DNA from: a virus
Length of the DNA stretch: 64,000 nt
Reading direction: 5' to 3' (one strand)
IMG/VR virus record: IMGVR_UViG_3300044691_000566
Coordinates: 95,747 to 159,746 of that record
Position numbers and translations under genes: made by a program. The notes under the pieces were generated by a model, which made no database searches, was not told the origin of the DNA, and saw only the letters and a program-made list of their open reading frames with translations. This document shows positions 4,286 through 58,184 of the stretch, piece by piece; positions within the stretch are counted from its first letter, which is position 1; each line of letters begins with the position of its first letter.

Positions 4286-5275
4286 ATGACGACTCAGACT
4301 CTCGCCGCCACCTCGTCCCTGCGCGGCCGTATCGCGCGCAAGTCCGACGACTACGCCAACGCCATCATGGAGCGCCGCAAGAGCAACGCGCCGCTCACCC
4401 ATGAGGCCAAGGTCAAGAAGATGGCGTTGATCCTCTCCGACGAGACCAGCGGCATCCGCCGCCTGGGCGTCGGGATGGTCGGCCCCATCCAGCTCAAGCT
4501 GCGCTACCAGGGCATCACCAGGAACGTGCTGGTGGAGGACCCGGTTACCCCGGGTACCCCCGTCGAGTACGACGTCTGGGATGATCTTGGTCAGGCGTAC
4601 ATCATGTCCGGCACCGAGGGCGAAGTCCGTGTGACTCCGTTCGAGGGCAAGCGCGTTCCGGTGCGGTTCTTCCGTATCGCCTCGCGCCCGGCCATCCGCA
4701 AGGAGGACCTGTTCTACCTGCGTATCAACGCAGTTGAGCAGGCCCAGGACGAGACCAAGCAGGCCATCCTCAAGCAGGAGGACACCCGCCTGCTCGTCCT
4801 GCTCCAGGCGGCGCTGACCGACTACGCCACCCGGCCGGACCACACGGTCACCCCGAACCACAACATCACCGAGGCGTCGGGCTACCTGACGCCGGGCTCG
4901 CTGTACTCGGCCGTCGCCATGACGGACATGCACGAGTTGCAGAGTGCCAGGATCTTGATCAACCCGTTCGACTTCCGGGACCTCTACCGCTGGGACATCA
5001 ACCAGACCGGCTGGGCGTTCAAGGACCGGGTCGTCGCGGGCGAGACGATCACCTCGTTCGGCGAGTTCCAGATCCAGCGGTCGATCATCGTGCCGCAGGG
5101 CAAGGTCTTCCTCACCCCGGAGCCCAACTTCTTGGGCGTTTTCCCCGTTTTGTACTCCTTGGACGTCGAGGAGAACCACATGGTGGAGGCGTTCTGGAAG
5201 GGCTGGGTGTTCGACGAGATGGTGAACATGACCATTTTGAACGCAAGGGGAATTGCCACGATTACCAAGGCTTAG
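4286..5275 (+). CDS. major capsid protein (Bxz1/cluster C-like)
   Basis: GPIQLKLRYQGITRNVLVED, DDLGQAY, GEVRVTPFEGKR and FRIAS closely resemble the cluster C mycobacteriophage MCP as recalled. Confidence 0.9.
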   Translation: MTTQTLAATSSLRGRIARKSDDYANAIMERRKSNAPLTHEAKVKKMALILSDETSGIRRLGVGMVGPIQLKLRYQGITRNVLVEDPVTPGTPVEYDVWDDLGQAYIMSGTEGEVRVTPFEGKRVPVRFFRIASRPAIRKEDLFYLRINAVEQAQDETKQAILKQEDTRLLVLLQAALTDYATRPDHTVTPNHNITEASGYLTPGSLYSAVAMTDMHELQSARILINPFDFRDLYRWDINQTGWAFKDRVVAGETITSFGEFQIQRSIIVPQGKVFLTPEPNFLGVFPVLYSLDVEENHMVEAFWKGWVFDEMVNMTILNARGIATITKA

Positions 5276-5290: not shown

Positions 5291-5827
5291 TTAGCCCAAG
5301 TGGCCCCACCGGGCACCAGTGACGAGTCGGGAGATCGCGCCCTGGCCAACCCCGTAGACGGCGGCGAGAGCCCTCTGGCTTTCGCCGCCGTCGGCGTATC
5401 TGCGGCGTATCTCCAGAACCTGCCACTCCTCCAGCTTGGCGGCAGCGTTGCCTGACCCTCGTGAAGAGGTGCCGTGCAGGATCTTGTCAGCTTCGTTCTC
5501 CCCAGAAGTGCCCCAGACGAGGTTCTCCTGCCGGTTGTCCGTAGAGTCACCGTTCAGGTGGCGCCCCTCCTGGCCCGGCTCCGGAAGACCCACAAAGGCC
5601 CCCAGGACGAGCTGGTGGACCAGGCGCTGGGCTCGGACACCGTCGATCGACATCATGATGTTCAGGTAGCCCCCGCCGTGACGGCCGGGCTTGAGTATGC
5701 GGCCCTGGACGTAGTGCCGCCGGGTCTGGCGCGACAGACTGCGCACGCGGCCAAGCGACGACACCTCGTAGAACTCATCGAACTCCGGTATGGGGACCGG
5801 CTTCCACTCTTCAGTCATGCGAGGCAT
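5291..5827 (-). CDS. NUMOD4-HNH homing endonuclease
   Basis: EEWKPVP...YEVSSLGRVRS (NUMOD4) and VHQLVLGAF...RHLNGDSTDNRQENLVWGT (HNH_3), with a C-terminal HTH. Confidence 0.9.
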   Translation of the reverse strand: MPRMTEEWKPVPIPEFDEFYEVSSLGRVRSLSRQTRRHYVQGRILKPGRHGGGYLNIMMSIDGVRAQRLVHQLVLGAFVGLPEPGQEGRHLNGDSTDNRQENLVWGTSGENEADKILHGTSSRGSGNAAAKLEEWQVLEIRRRYADGGESQRALAAVYGVGQGAISRLVTGARWGHLG

Positions 5828-5866
5828 CTTGTAGTACAGGACTTGACATCGTCAACTCCAAACGAA

Positions 5867-5970
5867 GGCCCCCGGATTTAAAAATCCGGGGGCCGTTCCC
5901 CTGCCCAGCCATGCCACGCCCAGCCAAACCCCACCGTGCCGGGCCATACCATGAGGCCCTGACTCTATCA
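5867..5970 (-). ncRNA. GGY/NN repeat RNA unit A5 (candidate guide)
   Basis: TGATAGAGTCA leader; NN = AT AT CC AC GG TT TG GT AT TG AG; hairpin GGCCCCCGGATTTTTAAATCCGGGGGCC. Confidence 0.75.
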
Positions 5971-5982
5971 TCTCCAACGACT

Positions 5983-6078
5983 GAGGGGCTCCCCGTAGGA
6001 AGCCCCTCCCATGCCTTGCCACGCCGAACCGGGCCCTGCCTTGCCCTGCCAGGGCATGCCAGGGCCTTGACCCTGTCA
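5983..6078 (-). ncRNA. GGY/NN repeat RNA unit A4
   Basis: TTGACA-N17-CAGGGT; NN = CT AT CT AG AA AG CC TC GT AA AT (one GCC triplet); cUACGg hairpin. Confidence 0.75.
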
Positions 6079-6104
6079 TCTCCAATGGCACCTGTCAAAC
6101 GACT

Positions 6105-6207
6105 GAGGGCGCCACCCCGAAGGATGACGCCCTCCCATGCCCCGCCTGGCCCTGCCAGACCTCGCCACGCCGAGCCTCGCCCAGCCCCGCAAGACCTGAC
6201 TCTGTCA
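6105..6207 (-). ncRNA. GGY/NN repeat RNA unit A3
   Basis: TTGACA-N17-CAGAGT; NN = GG TG GA TC GT GA CT AG CA GG AT; cUUCGg hairpin. Confidence 0.75.
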
Positions 6208-6231
6208 TCCCTGCCCGCATCTGTCAAAGCT

Positions 6232-6324
6232 GAGGGCGATCACCCGTAGATGATCGCCCTCCCATGCCCTGCCCGGCCAAGCCGAGCCGCGCCATGCCTA
6301 GCCCTGCAAGACCTGACTCTATCA
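6232..6324 (-). ncRNA. GGY/NN repeat RNA unit A2
   Basis: TGATAGAGTCA; NN = AG TA AT GC TC TT CG AG AT; cUACGg hairpin. Confidence 0.75.
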
Positions 6325-6335
6325 GCCCCAATGAC

Positions 6336-6436
6336 GAAGGGGCCCGAAGGACCCCTTCTCCCTGCCCTGCCCGGCCTAGCCCCACCGCGCCAGACCTTGC
6401 CCAGCCGTGCCTAGCCACGCGGCCCTGACTCTATCA
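6336..6436 (-). ncRNA. GGY/NN repeat RNA unit A1
   Basis: TGATAGAGTCA, whose TGA is the upstream ORF's stop; NN = GT TA AC TG AA CT GC GG TA CG AG AG; cUUCGg hairpin. Confidence 0.75.
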
Positions 6437-6748
6437 GGACTTCTCCGGCGTCGGCTTGGGCGTGTGGATGCCGGTCTTCCGGACCCACCCGGCCTCGAAA
6501 TCCTCCACCTGGTCCTTCGTCCACATGCGGCCCATGCGCAGCACCCGCCAGGGCTGGCCCAGGCGCCCGGTGGCCAGCTCGTCGGCCCGCTGCTTGGTCA
6601 CGCCCCAGCGGTCGGCCAGCTCGGCGAGCCCGAAGACCTGCATGTCCTCCAGGAGTTCCGCCACCCGCTGGAGGACCACGTCCTCGGCCTGCTCGCTCAG
6701 GTGGTCGTCGAAGGTGGGGGTACCCGGGAGTTCACGCTGATCGTTCAT
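6434..6748 (-). CDS. small HTH DNA-binding protein (AlpA/excisionase-like)
   Basis: FGLAELADRWGVTKQRADEL...GRMWTKDQVEDF pattern; the start could instead be 6778. Confidence 0.7.
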   Translation of the reverse strand: MNDQRELPGTPTFDDHLSEQAEDVVLQRVAELLEDMQVFGLAELADRWGVTKQRADELATGRLGQPWRVLRMGRMWTKDQVEDFEAGWVRKTGIHTPKPTPEKS

Positions 6749-6902
6749 ACGTCCAGTGGAACACATACGCCTTGACATCGTCTACCCCATCGTGCCACGC
6801 TCCATCTGCACGAGAGGGCCTTGCTCCGCCCCCACGGACCCCGGTCCGTGGCCCCTCGTCGCCGAAAGACCCCGGCTCGGACCCCCTGGCCGGGGTCTTT
6901 CC

Positions 6903-10960: not shown

Positions 10961-11065
10961 TGATAGGGTCAGGTCCTGCAAGGCACGGCAGGGCTAGGCG
11001 AGGTCTGGCAGGGTACGGCTGGGCACGGCAGGGGGAGGGCGATCACCTACGGGTGGTCGCCCTCC
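10961..11065 (+). ncRNA. GGY/NN repeat RNA unit B1
   Basis: TGATAGGGTCA; NN = AA AC AG TA GA CT AG AC TG AC AG; cUACGg hairpin. Confidence 0.75.
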
Positions 11066-11089
11066 GTTGTTGACAGATCCAGTAGGACA

Positions 11090-11185
11090 TGACAGAGTCA
11101 AGTCGTCCTCATTCACCTGGGGCGGGCGTCGGTCGATCCGTGGTGCTCCCTTTCGCAACAAGGGCACGGATTGACCGACGTCTTT
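11090..11185 (+). ncRNA. non-repeat hairpin small RNA inside array B
   Basis: TTGACA-N17-CAGAGT leader, then an 18-bp stem GGCGTCGGTCGATCCGTG/CACGGATTGACCGACGTC with two G.U pairs and a TTT tail. Confidence 0.55.
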
Positions 11186-11204
11186 GTACTCCCGTCGGTA
11201 ACCC

Positions 11205-11288
11205 TGATAGAGTCAAGTCCTCGGCACGGCTAGGTAGGGCAGGGTTTGGTAGGGCAGGGAGAAGGGGTCCTCTACGGAGGACCCCTTC
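11205..11288 (+). ncRNA. GGY/NN repeat RNA unit B3
   Basis: TGATAGAGTCA; NN = TC AC TA AG AG TT AG AG; cUACGg hairpin followed by GTTTT. Confidence 0.75.
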
Positions 11289-11344
11289 GTTTTGCCCCCG
11301 CAGGCCCGGTAGAGTCCGGCCTCCACCGTCAGAGAGGACCCTCA

Positions 11345-11554
11345 ATGCCCGACAGCGAGATCATCAGGGACTGGTACACCTCCAGCGCCTGCGGGGCGAA
11401 CAACTCCTGCCTGGAGGCCCGCACTTACGCCGACGGGTCGGTCGAGATCCGCAACTCCCAGGACCCGAAGGGCACCCTCCTCCGGTTCACCGAGGACGAA
11501 TGGTCCGCCTTCCTCGTGGGCGCCCGCGCCGGGGAGTTTTCCACCGGGGCATGA
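11345..11554 (+). CDS. DUF397-family protein
   Basis: WYTSSACGANNSCLEA...VEIRNSQDP...LRFTEDEWSAFL matches the actinobacterial DUF397 consensus. Confidence 0.85.
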   Translation: MPDSEIIRDWYTSSACGANNSCLEARTYADGSVEIRNSQDPKGTLLRFTEDEWSAFLVGARAGEFSTGA

Positions 11555-11556
11555 CC

Positions 11557-11640
11557 TGATAGAGTCAAGTCCTCGGCTAGGCATGGCGGGGCTCGGCTTG
11601 GCACGGCAGGGAGAAGGGGTCCACTACGGTGGACCCCTTC
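11557..11640 (+). ncRNA. GGY/NN repeat RNA unit B4
   Basis: TGATAGAGTCA; NN = TC TA AT GG TC TT AC AG; cUACGg hairpin. Confidence 0.75.
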
Positions 11641-11656
11641 GTCGTTGGGAGGACGG

Positions 11657-11836
11657 ATGCGCATCGGTCAGGAGCCGCCCCGGCGGGAGAAGCTGCGGGG
11701 CTACGTGATCACCGGCTGCATCAAGTGCGGCGGCCGGTCCAAGTGGATCCGGCGTGGACCGCACGACTGCTGCTTGCGCAAGGACATGAGCCGGGCCCGG
11801 GAGAAGCAGGAATGGCGCCGGACCCTCAGGGATTGA
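11657..11836 (+). CDS. small basic Cys-rich protein (59 aa)
   Basis: RBS GGAGG; CIKC...HDCC; its stop is the TGA of the next leader. Confidence 0.6.
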   Translation: MRIGQEPPRREKLRGYVITGCIKCGGRSKWIRRGPHDCCLRKDMSRAREKQEWRRTLRD

Positions 11837-11932
11837 TAGAGTCAAGTCCCTGGCAAGGCTGGCCAAGGCCCGGTAGGGCACGGCTTGGCCCGGCAGGGCA
11901 GGGAGAAGAGCCCCACTACGGTGGGGCTCTTC
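11834..11932 (+). ncRNA. GGY/NN repeat RNA unit B5
   Basis: TGATAGAGTCA; NN = CT AA TG AA CC AG AC TT CC AG AG (one GCC triplet); cUACGg hairpin. Confidence 0.75.
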
Positions 11933-11956
11933 GTCGTTGACGGACCCCGCAGTTCA

Positions 11957-12070
11957 TGACAGAGTCAAGTCCTGCATGGCCGGGCGGGACGTGGCGCGGT
12001 GTGGCATGGCTAGGTAGGGCCGGGCAGGGCATGGGCTGTGGAGATGGGGCCTCTTTCGGGAGGCCCCATC
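11957..12070 (+). ncRNA. GGY/NN repeat RNA unit B6
   Basis: TTGACG-N17-CAGAGT; NN = AT CG GG GT GC GT AT TA AG CG AG AT (one GAC triplet); UUCG hairpin. Confidence 0.75.
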
Positions 12071-12074
12071 GTCT

Positions 12075-12172
12075 TGATAGAGTCAAGTCCCTGGCTGGGC
12101 TTGGTATGGCTGGGCTTGGCGTGGTGAGGCATGGCAGGGGGAGAGGGCCCGGATTTTTAAATCCGGGCCCTC
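12075..12172 (+). ncRNA. GGY/NN repeat RNA unit B7
   Basis: TGATAGAGTCA; NN = CT TG TT AT TG TT GT GA AT AG; hairpin GAGGGCCCGGATTTTTAAATCCGGGCCCTC. Confidence 0.75.
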
Positions 12173-12182
12173 CGCCATATGG

Positions 12183-12212
12183 TTGACACTCCAGGAATCC
12201 TTGGAGTACAGT
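12183..12212 (+). promoter_or_regulatory. sigma70/HrdB-type promoter with a palindromic operator in the spacer
   Basis: TTGACA-N18-TACAGT; spacer holds ACTCCAGGAATCCTTGGAGT. Confidence 0.7.
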
Positions 12213-12250
12213 CACCTTCGCCAGAGAACGCCGAGCCCCAGGGAGGGCCC

Positions 12251-12829
12251 ATGCAGGTCCGTTTGACTCTTACCGGAACCACATCGCTGCTCATGCACAA
12301 CGCGCGGCTGTCCGACCCGTTGGACCCCTACACCAAGATGCTCAAGGCCATCTCCTCCAAGCGCACCAAGACGGAGGACGACCACGACGACATGGCGCGC
12401 GTCGAATTCCTCGGCGGCCTGTACTTCGACCCGGAGGCCGGGCCGTACGTTCCCGGCGTCAACGTCCACCGCTGCCTGGTGGAGGGCGCCAAGCTCAACA
12501 AGCTGGGCCGCCACGTGGAGCGCGGCATCATCGCCCTGGACGAGATCTGCCCGCTGGGCTACGCGGGGCCGCGCACGGAGGAGGCGCTGTGGAAGGACAA
12601 AAACTTCGTCTCCCGGCTGTCCGTCGGCGTCACCACCTCGCGCGTCATGCGCACGCGCCCCGAATTCCCGGTGTGGGGCCTGGAGGCCGACATGCTGGTG
12701 GACACCGGCCAGCTCGACCTGGAGCAGGTCCGCACCATCGCCGAGAAGTCCGGACAGATGATCGGTCTCGGCGACTACCGTCCCCGGTTCGGGCGATTCA
12801 CCGTCGAGGTCGTCGAACTCCAGGGCTGA
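12251..12829 (+). CDS. stand-alone RAMP / Cas7-like RNA-binding protein (Vipr-like effector candidate)
   Basis: 192 aa; N-terminal strand VRLTLTGTTSLLMH, PYVPGVNVHRCL, RTRPEF..W and C-terminal G-rich loop IGLGDYRPRFGRFTV are RAMP hallmarks; adjacent to the GGY/NN array; RBS GGGAGG. Confidence 0.8.
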   Translation: MQVRLTLTGTTSLLMHNARLSDPLDPYTKMLKAISSKRTKTEDDHDDMARVEFLGGLYFDPEAGPYVPGVNVHRCLVEGAKLNKLGRHVERGIIALDEICPLGYAGPRTEEALWKDKNFVSRLSVGVTTSRVMRTRPEFPVWGLEADMLVDTGQLDLEQVRTIAEKSGQMIGLGDYRPRFGRFTVEVVELQG

Positions 12830-12868: not shown

Positions 12869-13432
12869 ATGGCCGCCAAGCCGTTCGAGCCCAAGGGCGA
12901 TGTCGCCCGCTGGGTCCCCGTCTACGAGAATCTGCGCGACCTGGAGCCGGGGGTGCTGGTCACGTACGAGCAGCTCTCGGAGTGGGCCGGAGTCGATGTC
13001 CGGCGCGACCGCAGCCCCCTCGTGCAGGCCGAGGACAAGCTCCTGAAGGAGCACGGGCGCGGCGTCGCCAACGAGCGGGGCGTGGGGTACCGGATCATGC
13101 TGGCCTCCGAACACGGTGAGGCCGCCCGGCGCCAGACCCGGAAGGCCGACCGCCGGATCAGGAAGGCCATAACCCTTCTGACCGTGGCCGACCGCAATCA
13201 CCTGACCCCGCAGCAGCGGCAGAAGTACGAGAGTCAGGCCGGGGCTCTCCAGGCCGTCCGGGACATGACCAACCGCCTGGCGCGGCGGACGGCCGCGCTG
13301 GAGGAGGGTCTGAAAGCGGTCCGTCGGGAGACCAAGGAGACCACGGCCGGTCTGTCCGACCGCTTGGAGCGGCTGGAGGCCCGGTTCGCGAACGTTCCGG
13401 GCGATGCCCCGGCGGACAGCACCACGACCTGA
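12869..13432 (+). CDS. winged-helix plus coiled-coil protein, co-transcribed with the RAMP gene
   Basis: VTYEQLSEWAG...NERGVGYRI wHTH-like N-terminus and long helical C-terminus; RBS GAAGGAGG. Confidence 0.7.
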   Translation: MAAKPFEPKGDVARWVPVYENLRDLEPGVLVTYEQLSEWAGVDVRRDRSPLVQAEDKLLKEHGRGVANERGVGYRIMLASEHGEAARRQTRKADRRIRKAITLLTVADRNHLTPQQRQKYESQAGALQAVRDMTNRLARRTAALEEGLKAVRRETKETTAGLSDRLERLEARFANVPGDAPADSTTT

Positions 13433-27802: not shown

Positions 27803-30352
27803 GTGGCCTCCTTCCTGTACGCCCCACAATTGCAAGTCCTCATAGAGACCGGTGGCAACCTCAACCGGGGGAGCACCAAGACCACCGTGCTGGACGTCTC
27901 GGACGACCTGGTCGGCGGTCAGATGACGAGGCGGGTCGACGGCGTCTCCGACTTCTCTTTCACGCTGCTCAACCCCCGCAGGAAGTACGACGAGGTCTTC
28001 ACGCCGAACGACCGGATCACCGTGCTGATGAAGCGCGTGACCTGGGTCCGGGTGTTCACCGGGTATCTCAACCGGGTCCCGCTGCTGACCGCGTGGCCGC
28101 GCAACGTCACGCTGACGGCCTCGTGCTCCCTCAAGCGTCTCCAGTACTGGTACTGGGACCCGGAGTCGGCGTTCACCCAGCAGATGATCATGAACGCTCT
28201 GTCGGCGGCCTCCGGGACCGGGCAGACGTCCGACGGCGGCATGACCAATGTCGTCCTGTCGATTCTGAAGAACGTCGTCGGCTGGCCCGAGTCGAAAGCC
28301 CACATCGCCAAGATCCCCGACGACTGGTTCAAGGTCGCCTACAAGATCGCCGAAGCGGTCAACAAGACGGCCGCCGAGAGCGACCAGCTCGCCCAGCAGT
28401 TCTTCCAGTCCCTGGGGGGCGCCGGGACGGTGGGAACCAACGGCGGCCAGTCCTCTTCGGGCTCTCTCACCGGCAACTACGGCGAATTCAACGGGGCCGA
28501 CCAGAAGACCAACGCGGCCACCATCTACAACACCGGTCGCTCCATGGGCGCCACCGACCGGGACAACATCATCGCTCTGATGACGGCCATGCAGGAGTCC
28601 ACCCTGCACAACCTGACCCACGGCGACCGGGACTCCATCGGCCTGTTCCAGCAGAGGCCCTCCCAGGGCTGGGGCACCGTGGCGCAGATCCTCGATCCCG
28701 TCTACGCCTCCAAGCGCTTCTTCACCGCGCTGTTCAACATCGGCAACCGCGATCAGATGACCACCTCCCAGGCGGCCCAGGCGGTGCAGCGCTCGGCCTT
28801 CCCTCAGGCATATGCCAAGTGGGAGGGTGTCGCGACCCAGATGGTTGCCGACCTGAAGAAGTCCGGCGGCATCAACCCGATCACCTCCTCCGGGGTCCCG
28901 GGCGCCAACGCCATCGGCACCACCTCCAACAAGCAGATCGTCCAGGTCGCCAAGGACCTGGTGACGACCTACCCGACCATCCCGTACACCGAGAAGTACG
29001 GCGGCACCCAGGTATCCATCATCAGCATGAATCCCCCGCCCGGCCTGGACTGCTCGTCCTTCCAGCAGGCGGTGGTCCTGCGGTCCCTGGGCGGCTTGTA
29101 CGGCTTCCCCAGGACGTCGGAGACACAACTCCCCGCCTGCCGCGAGATACCCGTGGACGTGGCCCTCAAGACGCCGGGAGCGCTGCTCTTCAAGGGGTCT
29201 CCGCCGTTCCACGTGGAGATGTCCATCGGGGACGGCAAGAACGCGGTGGGGGCCCACCACACCGGGACGTTCGCCTCGATCGAGGCCACCTCGGCGGCCT
29301 ACTGGGACCACGGCGGCCTGATCCCCCGGGTGGACTACGGGAAGCTGGGCCAGGGGGACGGATCGACGGGCGGCGGCCTGACCACCGGCACCCCTGGCTC
29401 CAGCGCGGCCAACAGTTCCAGCATCTACACCGATCAGTACAGCAACACGCCCGGCTACAACCCGAACGACCCCTTCGACCGTCTTTTCGGGGACACCGCC
29501 TGGGGAGCCCTGGCCGCCCAGAAGAGCGACCCGGCCTACATCATCAGCCAGTCCCTGACCGGCGTGAAGAGCCTGCTCAACGACCAGCCGCTGCTGCCCT
29601 ACCTCAAAAACCTGTTCAGCTCCGGCATGCGGTCGTTCTCCTCGGCCCCCAACGGGGACCTCATCTCATGGTTCCCGGACTACTACGGCCTGTGGGGGAC
29701 CGCCGCGACGATGACCCTCCAGCCGATCGAGATCAAGGACTTCTCCGTCGACTGGGACGACAGTTTCTTCGTCACCCACCAGTTCACCGCGACCACCCCG
29801 CAGGGCGGCGCCGGGCAGAACGTGCTGGACCTGTCCACCGGCCAGGTCTCCTCCCAGGCGAGCGCGGCCCTGGATCCGCTGGTGGTGGCCCAGAGCCTGA
29901 GCTACACCCGGGGCATCGCCTCGATCGACATACCGGCCCTGATGTACGCGCTTTTTAAAATCTCCCCGACGACGGCCCAGGCCGCCAACTTCGCCAAGTT
30001 CATCTACCAGCGCTTCGGGGCCCGCCCCGACTTCCAGAGCCTCCCCAACCTGGTGGGCCCCAGCGCCCAGTTCTTCGCCGCGATCTACTTCTTCATGCGG
30101 CAGTGGGCCTACCAGTACAACGCCGATATCCCGCTGACCTTCATGCCCGAGCTGTTCCCCGGCATGCTGGTCAAGATCCCGGCCTTCTCCTTCCAGGCGT
30201 ACGTCAACCAGGTCACGCACACCTTCCAGATGGGCGACGGCGGCTACTTCAACACCACCATCAACATCTCGGCCCCGGCCAAGCTCAACGACACCGGGGC
30301 AGCGGCCAACGTCCTCATCGGCCTGCCCCGTGCGGGCGGACTGCTCGGCTGA
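27803..30352 (+). CDS. baseplate hub with lysozyme-like and NlpC/P60-like peptidoglycan hydrolase inserts
   Basis: IALMTAMQES...DRDSIGLFQQRPSQGWG...AAQAVQRSAFP; GLDCSSF...HVEM; C-terminal FMPELFPGM hub motif. Confidence 0.8.
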   Translation: MASFLYAPQLQVLIETGGNLNRGSTKTTVLDVSDDLVGGQMTRRVDGVSDFSFTLLNPRRKYDEVFTPNDRITVLMKRVTWVRVFTGYLNRVPLLTAWPRNVTLTASCSLKRLQYWYWDPESAFTQQMIMNALSAASGTGQTSDGGMTNVVLSILKNVVGWPESKAHIAKIPDDWFKVAYKIAEAVNKTAAESDQLAQQFFQSLGGAGTVGTNGGQSSSGSLTGNYGEFNGADQKTNAATIYNTGRSMGATDRDNIIALMTAMQESTLHNLTHGDRDSIGLFQQRPSQGWGTVAQILDPVYASKRFFTALFNIGNRDQMTTSQAAQAVQRSAFPQAYAKWEGVATQMVADLKKSGGINPITSSGVPGANAIGTTSNKQIVQVAKDLVTTYPTIPYTEKYGGTQVSIISMNPPPGLDCSSFQQAVVLRSLGGLYGFPRTSETQLPACREIPVDVALKTPGALLFKGSPPFHVEMSIGDGKNAVGAHHTGTFASIEATSAAYWDHGGLIPRVDYGKLGQGDGSTGGGLTTGTPGSSAANSSSIYTDQYSNTPGYNPNDPFDRLFGDTAWGALAAQKSDPAYIISQSLTGVKSLLNDQPLLPYLKNLFSSGMRSFSSAPNGDLISWFPDYYGLWGTAATMTLQPIEIKDFSVDWDDSFFVTHQFTATTPQGGAGQNVLDLSTGQVSSQASAALDPLVVAQSLSYTRGIASIDIPALMYALFKISPTTAQAANFAKFIYQRFGARPDFQSLPNLVGPSAQFFAAIYFFMRQWAYQYNADIPLTFMPELFPGMLVKIPAFSFQAYVNQVTHTFQMGDGGYFNTTINISAPAKLNDTGAAANVLIGLPRAGGLLG

Positions 30353-55886: not shown

Positions 55887-56296
55887 CCCTCTCCCTCGCG
55901 AATCGGACCAAGCTCCTGGGCCGGGGCATCCTCATCTGTATCAAGTGCGAGGAGCCCAAGAAGGTCGAAGAGTTCGCGCCACAGCGCAGTGGTCCTGGTG
56001 GGTACCGACCCCGTTGCAAGGTGTGCATGGTCGAGGACCAGTTGAAGTACAACCTGAAGTACCTCTACAACGTCTCGCTGGAAGAGTTCCGGGAGATGGA
56101 GCAGCGCCAGGGTGGTCGTTGCGCGCTCTGCGAGAATCCCCCGGAGCCCAAGGAGGATCGGCTGGGCGTTTTCCTGAACCGGAAGACGAAGGCGTTCCAG
56201 GCGCTTCTGTGTGTGAACTGTGTCCAGGCTCTGGGGAAGTTCGGTCATGACCCGGAGCAACTGCGGGTAGCTGCTCGCTTCCTGGAGTCGGGATGA
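55883..56296 (+). CDS. endonuclease VII-like protein, possibly inactive
   Basis: CIKC...CKVC, YNVSLEEF..M...QGGRCALC...ALLCVNC; the usual VDH.H motif is replaced by VFLNR. Confidence 0.7.
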   Translation: MTLSLANRTKLLGRGILICIKCEEPKKVEEFAPQRSGPGGYRPRCKVCMVEDQLKYNLKYLYNVSLEEFREMEQRQGGRCALCENPPEPKEDRLGVFLNRKTKAFQALLCVNCVQALGKFGHDPEQLRVAARFLESG

Positions 56297-57186
56297 TCTT
56301 GCTGGTCGACGCCAACAACCTCTTCATGAGGGCCTGGTTCGCCACCCAGCACGAGGCGATGACGGCCGACGGGGAGTCGACGGCGGCCATGGTGGTCTTC
56401 GTCAACACCCTGACCCGGCACCTGCGTGAGGAGCGGCCGGAGCGGGTGGTGGTGTGCTGGGACGGCGGGGGATCGGACTACCGGCTCCGGCTCTCGCCGT
56501 CCTACAAGGCCAACCGACGGGAGAAGGCCGAGGACTCCCGGGCCTCCCGCGAGCGCAGGACGATCAAGGAGTTCCTTTCCCTGGCCAACATCTTCCACGT
56601 GGAGCGGCCCGGGGTGGAGGCGGACGACCTGATCGCCAAGTACTGGCACGACGCCGACGAGGACGTGGTGGTCGTCTCGGAGGACAAGGACTTCCTGATG
56701 TTGGCGGGACCGACACCTCGTGGGTCTCTTGTGGAGGACGGGGTTTGCAAGATTCTCCGGTCCACCGGAGAGCGATGGGACGAGGCTGACGTTCATCGCA
56801 AGATGGGGGCCCCGCCGCAGCATCTGCCGTCCGTCATGGCCCTTACGGGCGACACCTCGGACAACGTCATCGGGGTGCCCGGGATAGGGCCTGTGCGGGC
56901 CGTACAGCTCCTGGAGGAGGCCGGGTGGTACCTGCGGGCCATCGAGGACCCCAGGGTCCGGGAGATGCTCCCTCAGGTCCTCACCAACCGGGTCCTGGTC
57001 AACCTCCGACTGCCGCTCCCGGGCCTGGAGTTGGCCGCTCCGCCGTACTTCGCGCCGACCCGCAGCCACTCGGCCCTGTACCCGGAACTTCTGGCCTTCC
57101 TGGACCGCTATCAGTTGAAGGGGTTGACGGCAAGGCTGCTCACGACCACGCTCTGGGACGATGGCTCACGGACTGTCGATGGGTAG
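56293..57186 (+). CDS. 5'-3' exonuclease (PolI N-terminal/FEN family)
   Basis: LVDANNL, YKANR, EADDLI, SEDKDF, LTGDTSDNVIGVPGIGP. Confidence 0.9.
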   Translation: MILLVDANNLFMRAWFATQHEAMTADGESTAAMVVFVNTLTRHLREERPERVVVCWDGGGSDYRLRLSPSYKANRREKAEDSRASRERRTIKEFLSLANIFHVERPGVEADDLIAKYWHDADEDVVVVSEDKDFLMLAGPTPRGSLVEDGVCKILRSTGERWDEADVHRKMGAPPQHLPSVMALTGDTSDNVIGVPGIGPVRAVQLLEEAGWYLRAIEDPRVREMLPQVLTNRVLVNLRLPLPGLELAAPPYFAPTRSHSALYPELLAFLDRYQLKGLTARLLTTTLWDDGSRTVDG

Positions 57187-57438
57187 CGTTTCAGGTGGTC
57201 AGGGCATGTCGGAGCGTCCGGCCACTTGATACGATCCGGGGGGTCTCCACCCCCTCCGGTCCGCCAGACGAGAGGCGCAGACATAATGCGCCCCGCCCCG
57301 CCTGATTCGACCTCAGGACGGGGCGGGATTTTAAAACTTGAGGGGGTTTCAGTGAGAGTCGGTTCAAACGTCCACGAGCTGGTCACGGACGGTCCGGGGA
57401 AACTCCGGGAGTCACGCAAGAGGACCACCGGGTCGGCC

Positions 57439-57771
57439 ATGTCGGACAAACAGGTGGCCCGAGCGGCCGTGAACGGCCAGATGATCGTCTTCCGTACGGG
57501 GCTCTTCGTCCCGGTGGAGGGCTACATCATCGTGGAGGGCTACGTCGTCGGGATGGACGATTACCACTGGCTCGTGGCGACTCCGAGCGATGACCGGCTC
57601 CCGGTCCAGACGGTCCTGGTACACAAGACCTGTCCCCTGGTGACGTTCATAGATCAGCACCTGGCGGACGAGACCGAGGACGACCGCAAGAAGATCCAGA
57701 CGATCGGCAACGCGTTCTGGGATTACTGCGTCACCACCGGACTGACCCGGTCCGTCCCTGCCACCGCTTAG
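57439..57771 (+). CDS. hypothetical protein (Sm/SH3-like)
   Basis: VEGYVVGMDDYHWLV; RBS GAGG. Confidence 0.6.
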   Translation: MSDKQVARAAVNGQMIVFRTGLFVPVEGYIIVEGYVVGMDDYHWLVATPSDDRLPVQTVLVHKTCPLVTFIDQHLADETEDDRKKIQTIGNAFWDYCVTTGLTRSVPATA

Positions 57772-57782
57772 GAGCGCAAACC

Positions 57783-58184
57783 GTGATCGATTTCGACGCC
57801 ATCCGCCGGGCCGCCGCCGGGGAACAGCCGGTGGTGAAAACGACCCCCGCCGCTCCGGTCGTCCAGGAGACCGTCCGCCTCACCCCGGTGGCCGGGGCCG
57901 CCTATCTGATGAAGCCCGACGGGTCCTGGTCCTGGGAGGACCTGAGGGACTACGCCGTGGGGCAGATCGTCATGTACCACGGACCCCAGGTCCGCAACTC
58001 CGTCAAGGAGGCGGCGATCTTCAAGGGGTTCCTGGCCCGGTACGGCGCCAAGGCCGTCCCCATCGCCCGCTTCGCCTTCGAGCAGCAGCGCGGCATGTGG
58101 CAGCGGGCCCCGATCTCGGTGACCCGCTTCGCCAAGGGGTCGGACCCGTACTTCGCCGACATCATCGCCAAGCGCCTGCCGTAG
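57783..58184 (+). CDS. hypothetical replication-operon protein
   Basis: RBS AGGAG; upstream of the DnaC-like gene. Confidence 0.7.
   Translation: MIDFDAIRRAAAGEQPVVKTTPAAPVVQETVRLTPVAGAAYLMKPDGSWSWEDLRDYAVGQIVMYHGPQVRNSVKEAAIFKGFLARYGAKAVPIARFAFEQQRGMWQRAPISVTRFAKGSDPYFADIIAKRLP

What the first reader, a model, noticed from the sequence alone, without database searches (positions are those of the whole stretch)
5843..6784. Second, orphan five-unit GGY-NN array inserted antisense behind the major capsid gene
Seen: units A1-A5 in tandem on the minus strand between an HTH gene and a NUMOD4-HNH gene, about 6 kb from the RAMP gene, each with a different NN string. Antisense skip-one readings: A1 LLRYPA(S/R)(F/L)(H/Q)VYT; A2 (I/M)LR(K/N)(D/E)A(I/M)YL; A4 (I/M)(F/L)T(D/E)GL(F/L)L(S/R)(I/M), loosely like DEAH helicase motif Ib; A5 L(H/Q)(I/M)T(H/Q)(K/N)PVG(I/M)(I/M). 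I found no convincing self target by eye. Inference: guides act in trans, and the array may spread by hitch-hiking with the homing endonuclease.
Basis: partly seen in the sequence, partly recalled or inferred. Interest (0 to 1): 0.8.

Follow-up and report, generated by a model that had tools for sequence, protein, structure and literature searches.

The report
Distal VIPR guide-RNA array in actinophage
The five repeat units are real genes for guide RNAs of the VIPR system (a CRISPR-related phage DNA silencer first described in 2026); one guide spells a conserved motif of the Ro60/Rsr RNA-quality-control gene of Streptomyces and some phages, and another nearly spells a DNA-methylase motif, so this is a new member of a known kind with target classes that the main texts of the VIPR preprints do not mention.

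Summary
Five tandem minus-strand units lie at 5860-6436. Each has an extended -10 box, 10-12 GGY-NN pentamers and a perfect GC hairpin. They sit between an HTH gene and a NUMOD4-HNH gene, behind the major capsid gene.

They are vrRNA genes of a type II VIPR system. The same 160-kb phage genome encodes a Vipr protein at 12179-12829 (E 6e-40 to PDB 'SUSP1 Vipr protein') followed by a vap1-like gene. The array is therefore distal, not orphan.

Under the published one-base-skip rule, A1 read in sense gives (V)YTWNLAGYR:
- It matched 138 of 138 sites in frame in TROVE/Ro60 (Rsr) genes.
- It hit 36 of 81 Streptomyces species, against 0 of 81 for the reversed control. That is 36 of the 40 genomes that carry the gene.

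A5 read antisense gives HITQKPVG(I/M). It matches the HITQKPVE(I/V) motif of PF01555 DNA methyltransferase genes with 1-2 mismatches in 13 of 61 genomes (control 1).

I found no convincing target for A2, A3 or A4, and no self-target.

The HNH hitch-hiking idea is not supported. In relatives, arrays occur without the HNH gene and the HNH gene occurs without arrays. Array content is hypervariable.

This scan has already noted VIPR in hundreds of other genomes. Silencing itself is untested here.

The parts
6330..6436 (-). vrRNA gene A1. The -10 box TGATAGAGT is at 6428-6436; its TGA is the stop codon of the HTH gene. Leader 6417-6427, 12 pentamers 6357-6416, hairpin 6333-6361. Guide units (GT) TA AC TG AA CT GC GG TA CG read as (V)YTWNLAGYR.
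   Evidence: The target is the TROVE/Ro60 gene.
6228..6324 (-). vrRNA gene A2. Pentamers 6254-6303, hairpin 6232-6261. Guide (AG) TA AT GC TC TT CG AG. No target identified.
   Evidence: Searches.
6100..6230 (-). vrRNA gene A3. TTGACA-N17-CAGAGT promoter, pentamers 6127-6186, hairpin 6105-6134. Guide (GG) TG GA TC GT GA CT AG CA GG. No target identified.
   Evidence: Searches.
5980..6100 (-). vrRNA gene A4. TTGACA plus CAGGGT promoter; pentamers 6001-6050, preceded by the degenerate units GGCAT GCCCT; hairpin 5983-6008. Guide (AT CT) AG AA AG CC TC GT AA. No target identified.
   Evidence: Searches.
5860..5970 (-). vrRNA gene A5. The -10 box is at 5962-5970, pentamers 5896-5950, terminator hairpin 5867-5894. 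Guide (AT) AT CC AC GG TT TG GT AT TG; read antisense it gives HITQKPVG(I/M)(I/M).
   Evidence: The near-target is a PF01555 DNA methyltransferase motif.
5291..5827 (-). NUMOD4-HNH homing-endonuclease-like gene downstream of the array. It is not linked to arrays in relatives.
6434..6778 (-). HTH (excisionase-like) gene upstream of the array; the probable start is the ATG at 6748. A homologue sits next to the capsid gene in the closest relatives.
12179..12829 (+). vipr gene, the RAMP protein that should bind these guides in trans.
   Evidence: PDB 36pp 'SUSP1 Vipr protein', E 6e-40 over 185 aa. 38% identity to SUSP1 28492-29052. phrog_4652.
12869..13432 (+). vap1-like accessory gene.
   Evidence: Weak homologue (E 5e-5, 26% identity) directly downstream of vipr in SUSP1. 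A 39% identical homologue lies about 460 bp downstream of vipr in relative G504, with vrRNA units in between.
10961..12165 (+). Main six-unit vrRNA array directly upstream of vipr. Listed as context, not studied here.

Best explanation
The five units are independently transcribed genes for about 100-nt VIPR guide RNAs (vrRNAs). They belong to a type II VIPR system whose vipr-vap1 genes lie 5.7 kb away in the same 160-kb lytic-type actinophage.

Inferred from the published mechanism: Vipr protomers polymerise on the GGY triplets and present each NN dinucleotide. The filament then binds double-stranded DNA whose sequence reads NNxNNx..., with x mostly at the codon wobble position, and blocks transcription.

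Shown here by sequence: the units have the vrRNA anatomy. A1 spells (V)YTWNLAGYR, one of the three or four best-conserved blocks of the TROVE/vWA Ro60 (Rsr) gene of Streptomyces and other actinomycetes, and of some unrelated (pro)phages. A5 spells, with 1-2 mismatches at its 5' end, the HITQKPVE(I/V) motif of N6/N4 DNA methyltransferase genes that lie in mobile or defence islands.

Inferred: during infection the phage silences these genes, in the host or in co-resident elements. A2-A4 probably address rarer elements that I could not find. The array is a modular, fast-turnover insertion in the capsid-HTH spacer and is independent of the HNH gene.
For: Anatomy.

Vipr and vap1:
- Vipr homology: E 6e-40 to PDB 'SUSP1 Vipr protein'.
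- SUSP1 has the same vipr-then-vap1 order.

Published rule: GGY/NN guide, one-base skip, wobble alignment, targets on either strand, hits at 80% or more NN match taken as natural targets (bioRxiv 10.64898/2026.04.26.720920; structure in 10.64898/2026.04.26.720927).

A1:
- The exact 18-base pattern hits 18 IMG/VR contigs and at least 120 actinomycete genome stretches. All 138 are in frame in TROVE genes.
- 36 of 81 Streptomyces species have a site with at most 1 mismatch, against 0 of 81 for the reversed control.
- 40 of the same 81 genomes carry a TROVE gene. Every genome with an A1 site is among them, which makes 36 of 40; the sites I compared lie about 460 bp from the TROVE-domain match.
- The skipped positions vary (0.3-1.8 bits) and the leader unit GT matches the preceding Val codon in 110 of 138 hits.
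- The window ranks 20th of 430 for NN conservation in 30 TROVE genes chosen independently of the pattern.

A5:
- 9 of 151 genomes have a 1-mismatch hit (control 0), all in PF01555/phrog_67 genes.
- At up to 2 mismatches there are 15 hits in 13 of 61 genomes (control 1). 12 of the 15 decode to HITQKPV(E/D)(I/V).

Self:
- The phage has no TROVE gene and no PF01555 gene.
- It has no self-target.

Turnover.
Against: - Nothing here shows expression, Vipr binding or silencing.
- A1's site is about 40-50 codons from the 3' end of the gene, so a transcription block there might leave most of the protein made.
- A5 has no perfect match anywhere I searched. Its one exact IMG/VR hit is in a 39% GC contig in an ORF with no family. 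Its Streptomyces hits may represent only two or three orthologue groups.
- Three of the five guides have no target in 50-300 Streptomyces genomes (the number varied by guide and mismatch setting), in IMG/VR by exact patterns, or, for A3, in JGI metagenomes.
- The host is unknown. The capsid resembles cluster C mycobacteriophages.
- The 3' tail is a simple hairpin of variable sequence, not the conserved pseudoknot of the SUSP1 clade.
Confidence: 0.85

Rival explanations
1. The units are genuine vrRNAs, but their matches record where guides came from (copied from, or templated on, host or phage genes) or serve as decoys, not as working silencers. A1 and A5 would then have no effect on rsr or methylase expression.
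For: The A1 site is near the 3' end of the gene. Satellite vrRNAs that send Vipr to decoy sites are published (10.64898/2026.10.15.759431). A5 is imperfect.
Against: A1 matches only the first two codon positions, and the wobble bases differ among the 138 targets. It therefore fits a family-wide consensus and not a copy of one gene. It sits on one of the most conserved blocks. A single-copy site in only half of the species makes a poor decoy.
Confidence: 0.1
2. The true targets of A1 and A5 are rival mobile elements (phages or proviruses carrying Ro60 and methylase genes), as in the published inter-element warfare model. The chromosomal matches would be by-products of shared protein motifs.
For: 18 IMG/VR contigs, including two proviruses, carry perfect A1 sites. 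The methylases hit by A5 best match the phage family phrog_67 and lie beside transposases and a pPIWI_RE nuclease. Published natural targets are mostly mobile elements.
Against: In the three Streptomyces loci I examined, the TROVE gene lies among ordinary chromosomal genes (cysteine synthase, permease, TerD), and half of the Streptomyces species sampled carry it. The five TROVE-bearing viral contigs tested share no capsid with this phage.
Confidence: 0.3
3. The array is a mobile cassette that spreads with the adjacent HNH homing endonuclease.
For: The HNH gene directly follows A5. A degenerate leader-like motif (GATGTCAAGTCCT) precedes it. A 12-bp repeat, GACGATGTCAAG, flanks the HTH-plus-array block.
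Against: The two do not co-occur in 80 related loci. Arrays occur without HNH in six; HNH occurs without an array behind the capsid gene in five, one of which has a single unit about 3.5 kb away. The 12-mer lies 25-33 nt upstream of both start codons, which fits a shared promoter. Pairs of 12-mers within 1 kb are expected about 10 times per genome by chance.
Confidence: 0.05
4. The pentamer RNAs are protein-sponge or TRAP-like regulatory RNAs, or G-quadruplex elements, unrelated to guided DNA binding. This was my first reading, before I found the VIPR literature.
For: The 5-nt periodicity with 8-12 repeats resembles TRAP binding sites, and the G-tracts are regularly spaced.
Against: A close homologue of a structurally solved Vipr is encoded nearby. 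The NN strings decode to in-frame conserved motifs far above the controls.
Confidence: 0.02

Closest known systems
Type II VIPR system of Escherichia phage SUSP1 and the Pseudomonas fulva prophage (bioRxiv 10.64898/2026.04.26.720920 and 10.64898/2026.04.26.720927)
   Same: Vipr homologue (38% identity) followed by a vap1-like gene. Roughly 100-nt RNAs of 9-12 GGY-NN units with a structured 3' end. One-base-skip targets aligned to codons. No self-targeting.
   Different: The host range is actinobacterial. About 19 vrRNA genes are scattered over at least 8 loci of a 160-kb genome; in SUSP1 four vrRNAs flank vipr. Each unit has its own phage-type promoter. The tail is a plain hairpin of variable sequence with a semi-conserved GGCA(G/T)-GGRRR junction, not a conserved pseudoknot. 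The predicted targets include a widely conserved chromosomal gene (Ro60/Rsr) and DNA methylases, not a satellite or prophage regulators.
Solo/orphan vrRNAs of F5 satellites and VIPR-null Felix O1-like phages (bioRxiv 10.64898/2026.10.15.759431)
   Same: vrRNA genes that lie away from any vipr gene and act in trans on a Vipr protein encoded elsewhere.
   Different: Here the same genome supplies Vipr, so the array is distal, not orphan. Its targets are not vipr, other vrRNAs or REP decoys.
Class 1 CRISPR crRNA-Cas7 backbone
   Same: A RAMP protein polymerises on a guide RNA, with periodic thumb insertions interrupting the guide-target pairing (as described in the VIPR preprints).
   Different: There are no repeat-spacer array, no adaptation genes and no contiguous 5+1 pairing. 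Guide information is 2 of every 5 nucleotides. Each guide is a separate gene.
Phage-encoded CRISPR-Cas of Vibrio phage ICP1 against the PLE element (from my own knowledge, not checked here)
   Same: A lytic phage carries an RNA-guided system aimed at DNA resident in the host cell.
   Different: ICP1 destroys a parasitic element by cleavage. Here the predicted action is silencing, and one target is an ordinary host gene family.

Membership tests
VIPR system, type II | Vipr protein (minimal RAMP) encoded in the element | tested here: met
   Window 12179-12829: phmmer E 6e-40 over residues 28-212 to PDB 36pp 'SUSP1 Vipr protein'. 38% identity to SUSP1 28492-29052.
VIPR system, type II | vap1 accessory gene next to vipr | tested here: met
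   Window 12869-13432 has a weak homologue (E 5e-5, 26% identity over 92 aa) directly downstream of vipr in SUSP1. Relative G504 has a 39% identical homologue about 460 bp downstream of its vipr, with vrRNA units in between. The similarity is weak and no Pfam family was found.
VIPR system, type II | vrRNA made of 9-16 tandem pentamers with conserved GGY and hypervariable NN | tested here: met
   A1-A5 have 10-12 units. GG is in phase throughout, position 3 is C or T in 8-11 units each, and the NN strings all differ.
VIPR system, type II | Conserved structured 3' tail (a pseudoknot in the SUSP1 clade) | tested here: inconclusive
   Every unit ends in a perfect 11-13 bp hairpin. However, stem sequences differ between units and no pseudoknot was tested. 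Only the GGCA(G/T)GGRRR junction is conserved.
VIPR system, type II | Targets follow the one-base-skip rule, with the skipped base at the codon wobble position | tested here: met
   A1: 138 of 138 exact hits are in frame, with variable x positions. A5: the 9 one-mismatch hits are in frame on the antisense strand of PF01555 genes. A2-A4: no target found.
VIPR system, type II | No self-target at 80% or more NN match | tested here: met
   The best self-matches are 68-75%, equal to the shuffled-guide null.
VIPR system, type II | vrRNAs are expressed, co-purify with Vipr and repress transcription of matching DNA | not testable with these tools
   Needs small-RNA sequencing, pull-down and reporter assays.
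Solo/orphan vrRNA (VIPR-null element) | The carrying element lacks vipr and vap | tested here: not met
   vipr and vap1-like genes are present 5.7 kb away in the same complete genome.
CRISPR array | Identical direct repeats separated by unique spacers, processed from one transcript | tested here: not met
   No such repeats are present. The units are promoter-to-hairpin genes with 5-nt periodicity, and Rfam found nothing.

The most novel reading that the evidence does not exclude
A lytic actinophage uses VIPR guides written against family-wide protein motifs to switch off conserved host genes, not rival mobile elements. One such gene is the chromosomal Ro60/Rsr RNA-quality-control gene, carried by about half of the Streptomyces species sampled. 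This would mean that Ro60/Rsr (possibly with its RNA-repair partners) restricts phage growth in actinomycetes, and that VIPR is also a host-takeover and anti-defence tool.
Probability: 0.3. Interest if true: 0.7.

Novelty: new member of a known kind. Interest (0 to 1): 0.45.

Why it matters
VIPR was published only in 2026, and its characterised natural targets are satellites, prophage regulators, rival VIPR loci and host REP decoys.

This locus gives a clean, statistically strong case of a guide written against a conserved motif of a widespread cellular gene family (Ro60/Rsr), and a second guide close to a DNA methyltransferase motif. Both come from an actinophage lineage in which VIPR is patchy and its guide sets turn over quickly.

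If the silencing is real, three things follow. It extends VIPR from inter-element warfare to control of host genes. It suggests an unrecognised role of bacterial Ro60 in phage infection. It also shows how the wobble-skipping code lets one guide cover many species.

The locus also shows that guide genes can be scattered far from vipr, which matters for annotating such systems.

Tried and rejected
- My first reading was TRAP-like or sponge RNAs. I dropped it once the VIPR preprints and the Vipr homology were found.
- Rfam and tRNA scans of the window found nothing. Rfam also found nothing on eight TROVE loci, so no Y RNA was detected.
- Self-targets: none above the null.
- All 19 guides of this phage and 43 guides from relatives were scanned against the 138 TROVE loci. 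Only A1 hits them.
- A2-A5 were scanned against 2.08 Mb of fetched loci, including the capsid regions of the relatives: nothing.
- A3:
  - IMG/VR gave 0 exact hits with 9 units. With 8 units it gave 8 hits in unrelated ORFs and low-GC contigs.
  - JGI metagenomes gave 2 hits consistent with chance.
  - In Streptomyces, 1 of 301 genomes had a hit at up to 1 mismatch; it was intergenic and the control also gave 1. There were 7 hits against 4 control hits at up to 2 mismatches, and 1 against 1 for the seven 3' units.
- A4: 0 of 101 genomes matched exactly. There were 2 hits against 1 control at up to 2 mismatches; one of the two reads LTDGLLLR, but in an ORF with no Pfam family. The five IMG/VR hits are one identical non-coding 23-mer in 42-46% GC contigs. 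The DEAH motif Ib idea is rejected.
- A2: 0 of 121 genomes matched exactly. The five IMG/VR hits look like chance. At up to 2 mismatches the hits did not exceed the control.
- A5: 0 of 201 in a class-level sample. The IMG/VR hits fall in unrelated proteins.
- The five TROVE-bearing viral contigs I tested are not relatives of this phage.
- None of five complete relatives carries the A1 guide.

Full report
**What is there**

The window is the last 64 kb of a complete 159,746-bp virus record with terminal repeats and 67% G+C. Its major capsid protein is about 60% identical to those of cluster C mycobacteriophages, Gordonia phage Skog and Rhodococcus phage E3.

Between the capsid gene (4286-5275, +) and the next plus-strand gene lies a minus-strand island. 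It holds an HTH/excisionase-like gene (6434-6778), five tandem non-coding units (about 5860-6436) and a NUMOD4-HNH gene (5291-5827).

Each unit has three parts:
- An extended -10 box, TGATAGAGT. In A3 and A4 it is a weaker CAGAGT/CAGGGT box with TTGACA 17 bp upstream.
- After 11-12 nt, 10-12 pentamers with GG in strict phase and C or T at position 3.
- A perfect 11-13 bp GC hairpin.

The stems of these hairpins differ in sequence from unit to unit. The whole genome holds at least 19 such units at about 8 loci. The leader motif occurs 29 times, also in front of other genes, so it is a general phage promoter type.

**What it is**

VIPR comprises a minimal RAMP protein (Vipr), an accessory Vap protein, and vrRNAs built of GGY/NN pentamers. 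The NN dinucleotides pair with double-stranded DNA while skipping one target base per unit, mostly the wobble base. Binding represses transcription.

I tested the defining features here:
- The 216-aa gene at 12179-12829 matches the PDB chain named 'SUSP1 Vipr protein' at E 6e-40 over its whole length.
- In SUSP1 the homologues of this gene and of the next gene (12869-13432) are adjacent and in the same order.
- The phage has no self-target. The best self-matches are 68-75% identical, equal to the shuffled-guide null.

The array is therefore a distal vrRNA array of a VIPR-positive genome. It is not an orphan in the published sense.

**Guide A1**

The nine variable units TA AC TG AA CT GC GG TA CG, written as NNx, matched 18 IMG/VR contigs exactly. 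The equivalent A3 and A5 patterns gave 0 and 1 hits. In the species-genome collection A1 matched at least 120 stretches, all from actinomycetes and mostly Streptomyces.

All 138 hits are in frame and read YTWNLAGYR, in the C-terminal part of 530-700-aa TROVE (plus vWA) proteins. These are Ro60/Rsr orthologues of family phrog_850.

- The skipped positions vary among hits.
- The leader unit (NN = GT) matches the preceding Val codon in 110 of 138 hits.
- The conserved 3' units (AG AG GA) do not match, so they belong to the handle and not the guide.

In an even sample of 81 Streptomyces species, 36 have a site with at most one mismatch. The reversed-pattern control gave 0. Forty of the same 81 genomes carry a TROVE gene, and all 36 site-bearing genomes are among them.

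In 30 TROVE genes picked by Pfam score alone, the A1 window is perfect in 21 and has at most one mismatch in 24. It ranks 20th of 430 ten-codon windows for conservation of the first two codon positions.

The phage itself has no TROVE gene. The five TROVE-bearing viral contigs I tested are unrelated to it by capsid, and two of them are proviruses.

**Guide A5**

With up to one mismatch, 9 of 151 Streptomyces genomes are hit (control 0). All nine hits fall at the same place in PF01555 N6/N4 DNA methyltransferase genes (phrog_67). There the antisense reading is HITQKPVEIM, against the guide's HITQKPVG(I/M)(I/M).

With up to two mismatches there are 15 hits in 13 of 61 genomes (control 1), and 12 of them decode to HITQKPV(E/D)(I/V). 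The mismatches lie in the two 5'-most units, and the seven 3'-proximal units match perfectly. NN identity is 89-95%, above the 80% cut-off of the preprints.

In one complete genome the methylase lies beside transposases, a DUF5655 protein and a pPIWI_RE-associated nuclease. The phage has no PF01555 gene.

Because the hits may represent only a few orthologue groups and no perfect match was found, I rate this assignment at about 0.6.

**Guides A2, A3 and A4**

No convincing target emerged from any search:
- exact-pattern scans of IMG/VR;
- one metagenome scan (A3);
- exact scans and scans at up to two mismatches over 50-300 Streptomyces genomes.

In the preprints about half of the SUSP1-clade vrRNAs and about a third of the P. 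fulva ones also lacked identifiable targets.

**Relatives and the HNH idea**

I fetched 80 IMG/VR loci whose capsids are 82-96% identical to this one.
- The closest relatives have the HTH homologue 116-143 bp after the capsid gene, with no unit and no HNH gene.
- Others have 1, 3 or 4 units there, with unrelated NN strings and no HNH gene.
- Five have an HNH homologue there without an array behind the capsid gene; one of them (L189) has a single unit about 3.5 kb away.

Of four complete relatives, three lack both vipr and vrRNAs. One has vipr (68% identity), a vap gene and 10 vrRNAs at three loci. None of five complete relatives carries the A1 guide.

VIPR is thus an accessory module in this lineage with rapidly changing guide sets, and the array does not travel with the HNH gene.

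**How it most likely works**

Shown by sequence: the promoter-repeat-hairpin genes, Vipr and a vap1-like gene in the same genome, two guides with non-random codon-phased matches outside the genome, and no self-match.

Inferred from the published system: Vipr coats each RNA, and the filament binds the matching DNA on either strand and blocks transcription.

Inferred and open: whether the relevant DNA is the host chromosome or co-resident elements, and whether a block 40-50 codons before the stop of rsr is effective.

**Comparison and novelty**

This is a new member of a known kind, type II VIPR. It differs from the described exemplars in three ways:
- its guide genes are scattered and individually promoted;
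- its tails are plain hairpins;
- its predicted target classes (Ro60/Rsr, DNA methyltransferase) do not appear in the main texts of the three preprints. I could not see their supplementary tables.

This scan has already recorded VIPR in hundreds of genomes, including guides aimed at host defence genes on other DNA.

Noticed in passing
L327 (Mycobacterium phage Brocalys NC_031262.1, record about 32.5-32.74 kb): This cluster P temperate mycobacteriophage, and its relatives Donkeykong, Pippy, Clifton and LastJedi, share a 60-nt match to A3. Brocalys has staggered GGY-NN runs between gp44 and gp45. gp45 is weakly Vipr-like (24% identity over 198 aa, pairwise E 0.003). The locus sits next to the immunity cassette (repressor, antirepressor, excisionase).
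   Followed up: partly
window 5842-5853 and 6771-6782 (minus strand): The 12-mer GACGATGTCAAG occurs only twice in the 160-kb genome, 25-33 nt upstream of the start codons of the HNH and HTH genes. The two copies therefore bracket the HTH-plus-array block. It is probably a shared promoter or operator; an insertion scar is not excluded.
   Followed up: partly
window 6428-6436: The stop codon TGA of the HTH gene is also the 'TGn' of A1's extended -10 box (TGATAGAGT). The first guide gene therefore starts exactly at the end of the HTH gene.
   Followed up: no
whole genome G000 (e.g. 9935, 29098, 42492, 45326, 49003, 50367, 61576, 73177, 144289): The leader GAYANRGTCARG occurs 29 times. About ten copies are not followed by pentamer arrays. 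It therefore looks like a phage-wide promoter class that also drives other small RNAs or genes, including the tRNA-like region noted by others.
   Followed up: no
window 6254-6303 (A2) and 11575-11614 (B3): A2 (TA AT GC TC TT CG AG) and a unit of the main array (TA AT GG TC TT AC AG) share most of their first five dinucleotides. This suggests paralogous guides for variants of one site; the target is unknown.
   Followed up: no
G504 (IMG/VR relative, 154,156 bp): 56267-58054, 111493-111547, 151042-151367: This is the only one of four complete relatives with VIPR. It has vipr (68% identity), a vap gene and 10 vrRNAs at three loci, with a different leader and a different 3' junction (units ending AG TC).
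   Followed up: partly
L224-L228 (IMG/VR contigs, 42-46% GC): An identical 23-mer, CTAAGTAAAAGCCCATCCGTTAA, recurs in five low-GC viral contigs with differing flanks and no long ORF. It matches A4's eight units exactly. It is probably a conserved non-coding element hit by chance.
   Followed up: no
L323 (Streptomyces G125:C1:4420000-4438000): The PF01555 methylase hit by A5 lies in an island with rve and DDE transposases, a DUF5655 protein, a pPIWI_RE-associated REase and a 1088-aa protein with no Pfam family.
   Followed up: partly
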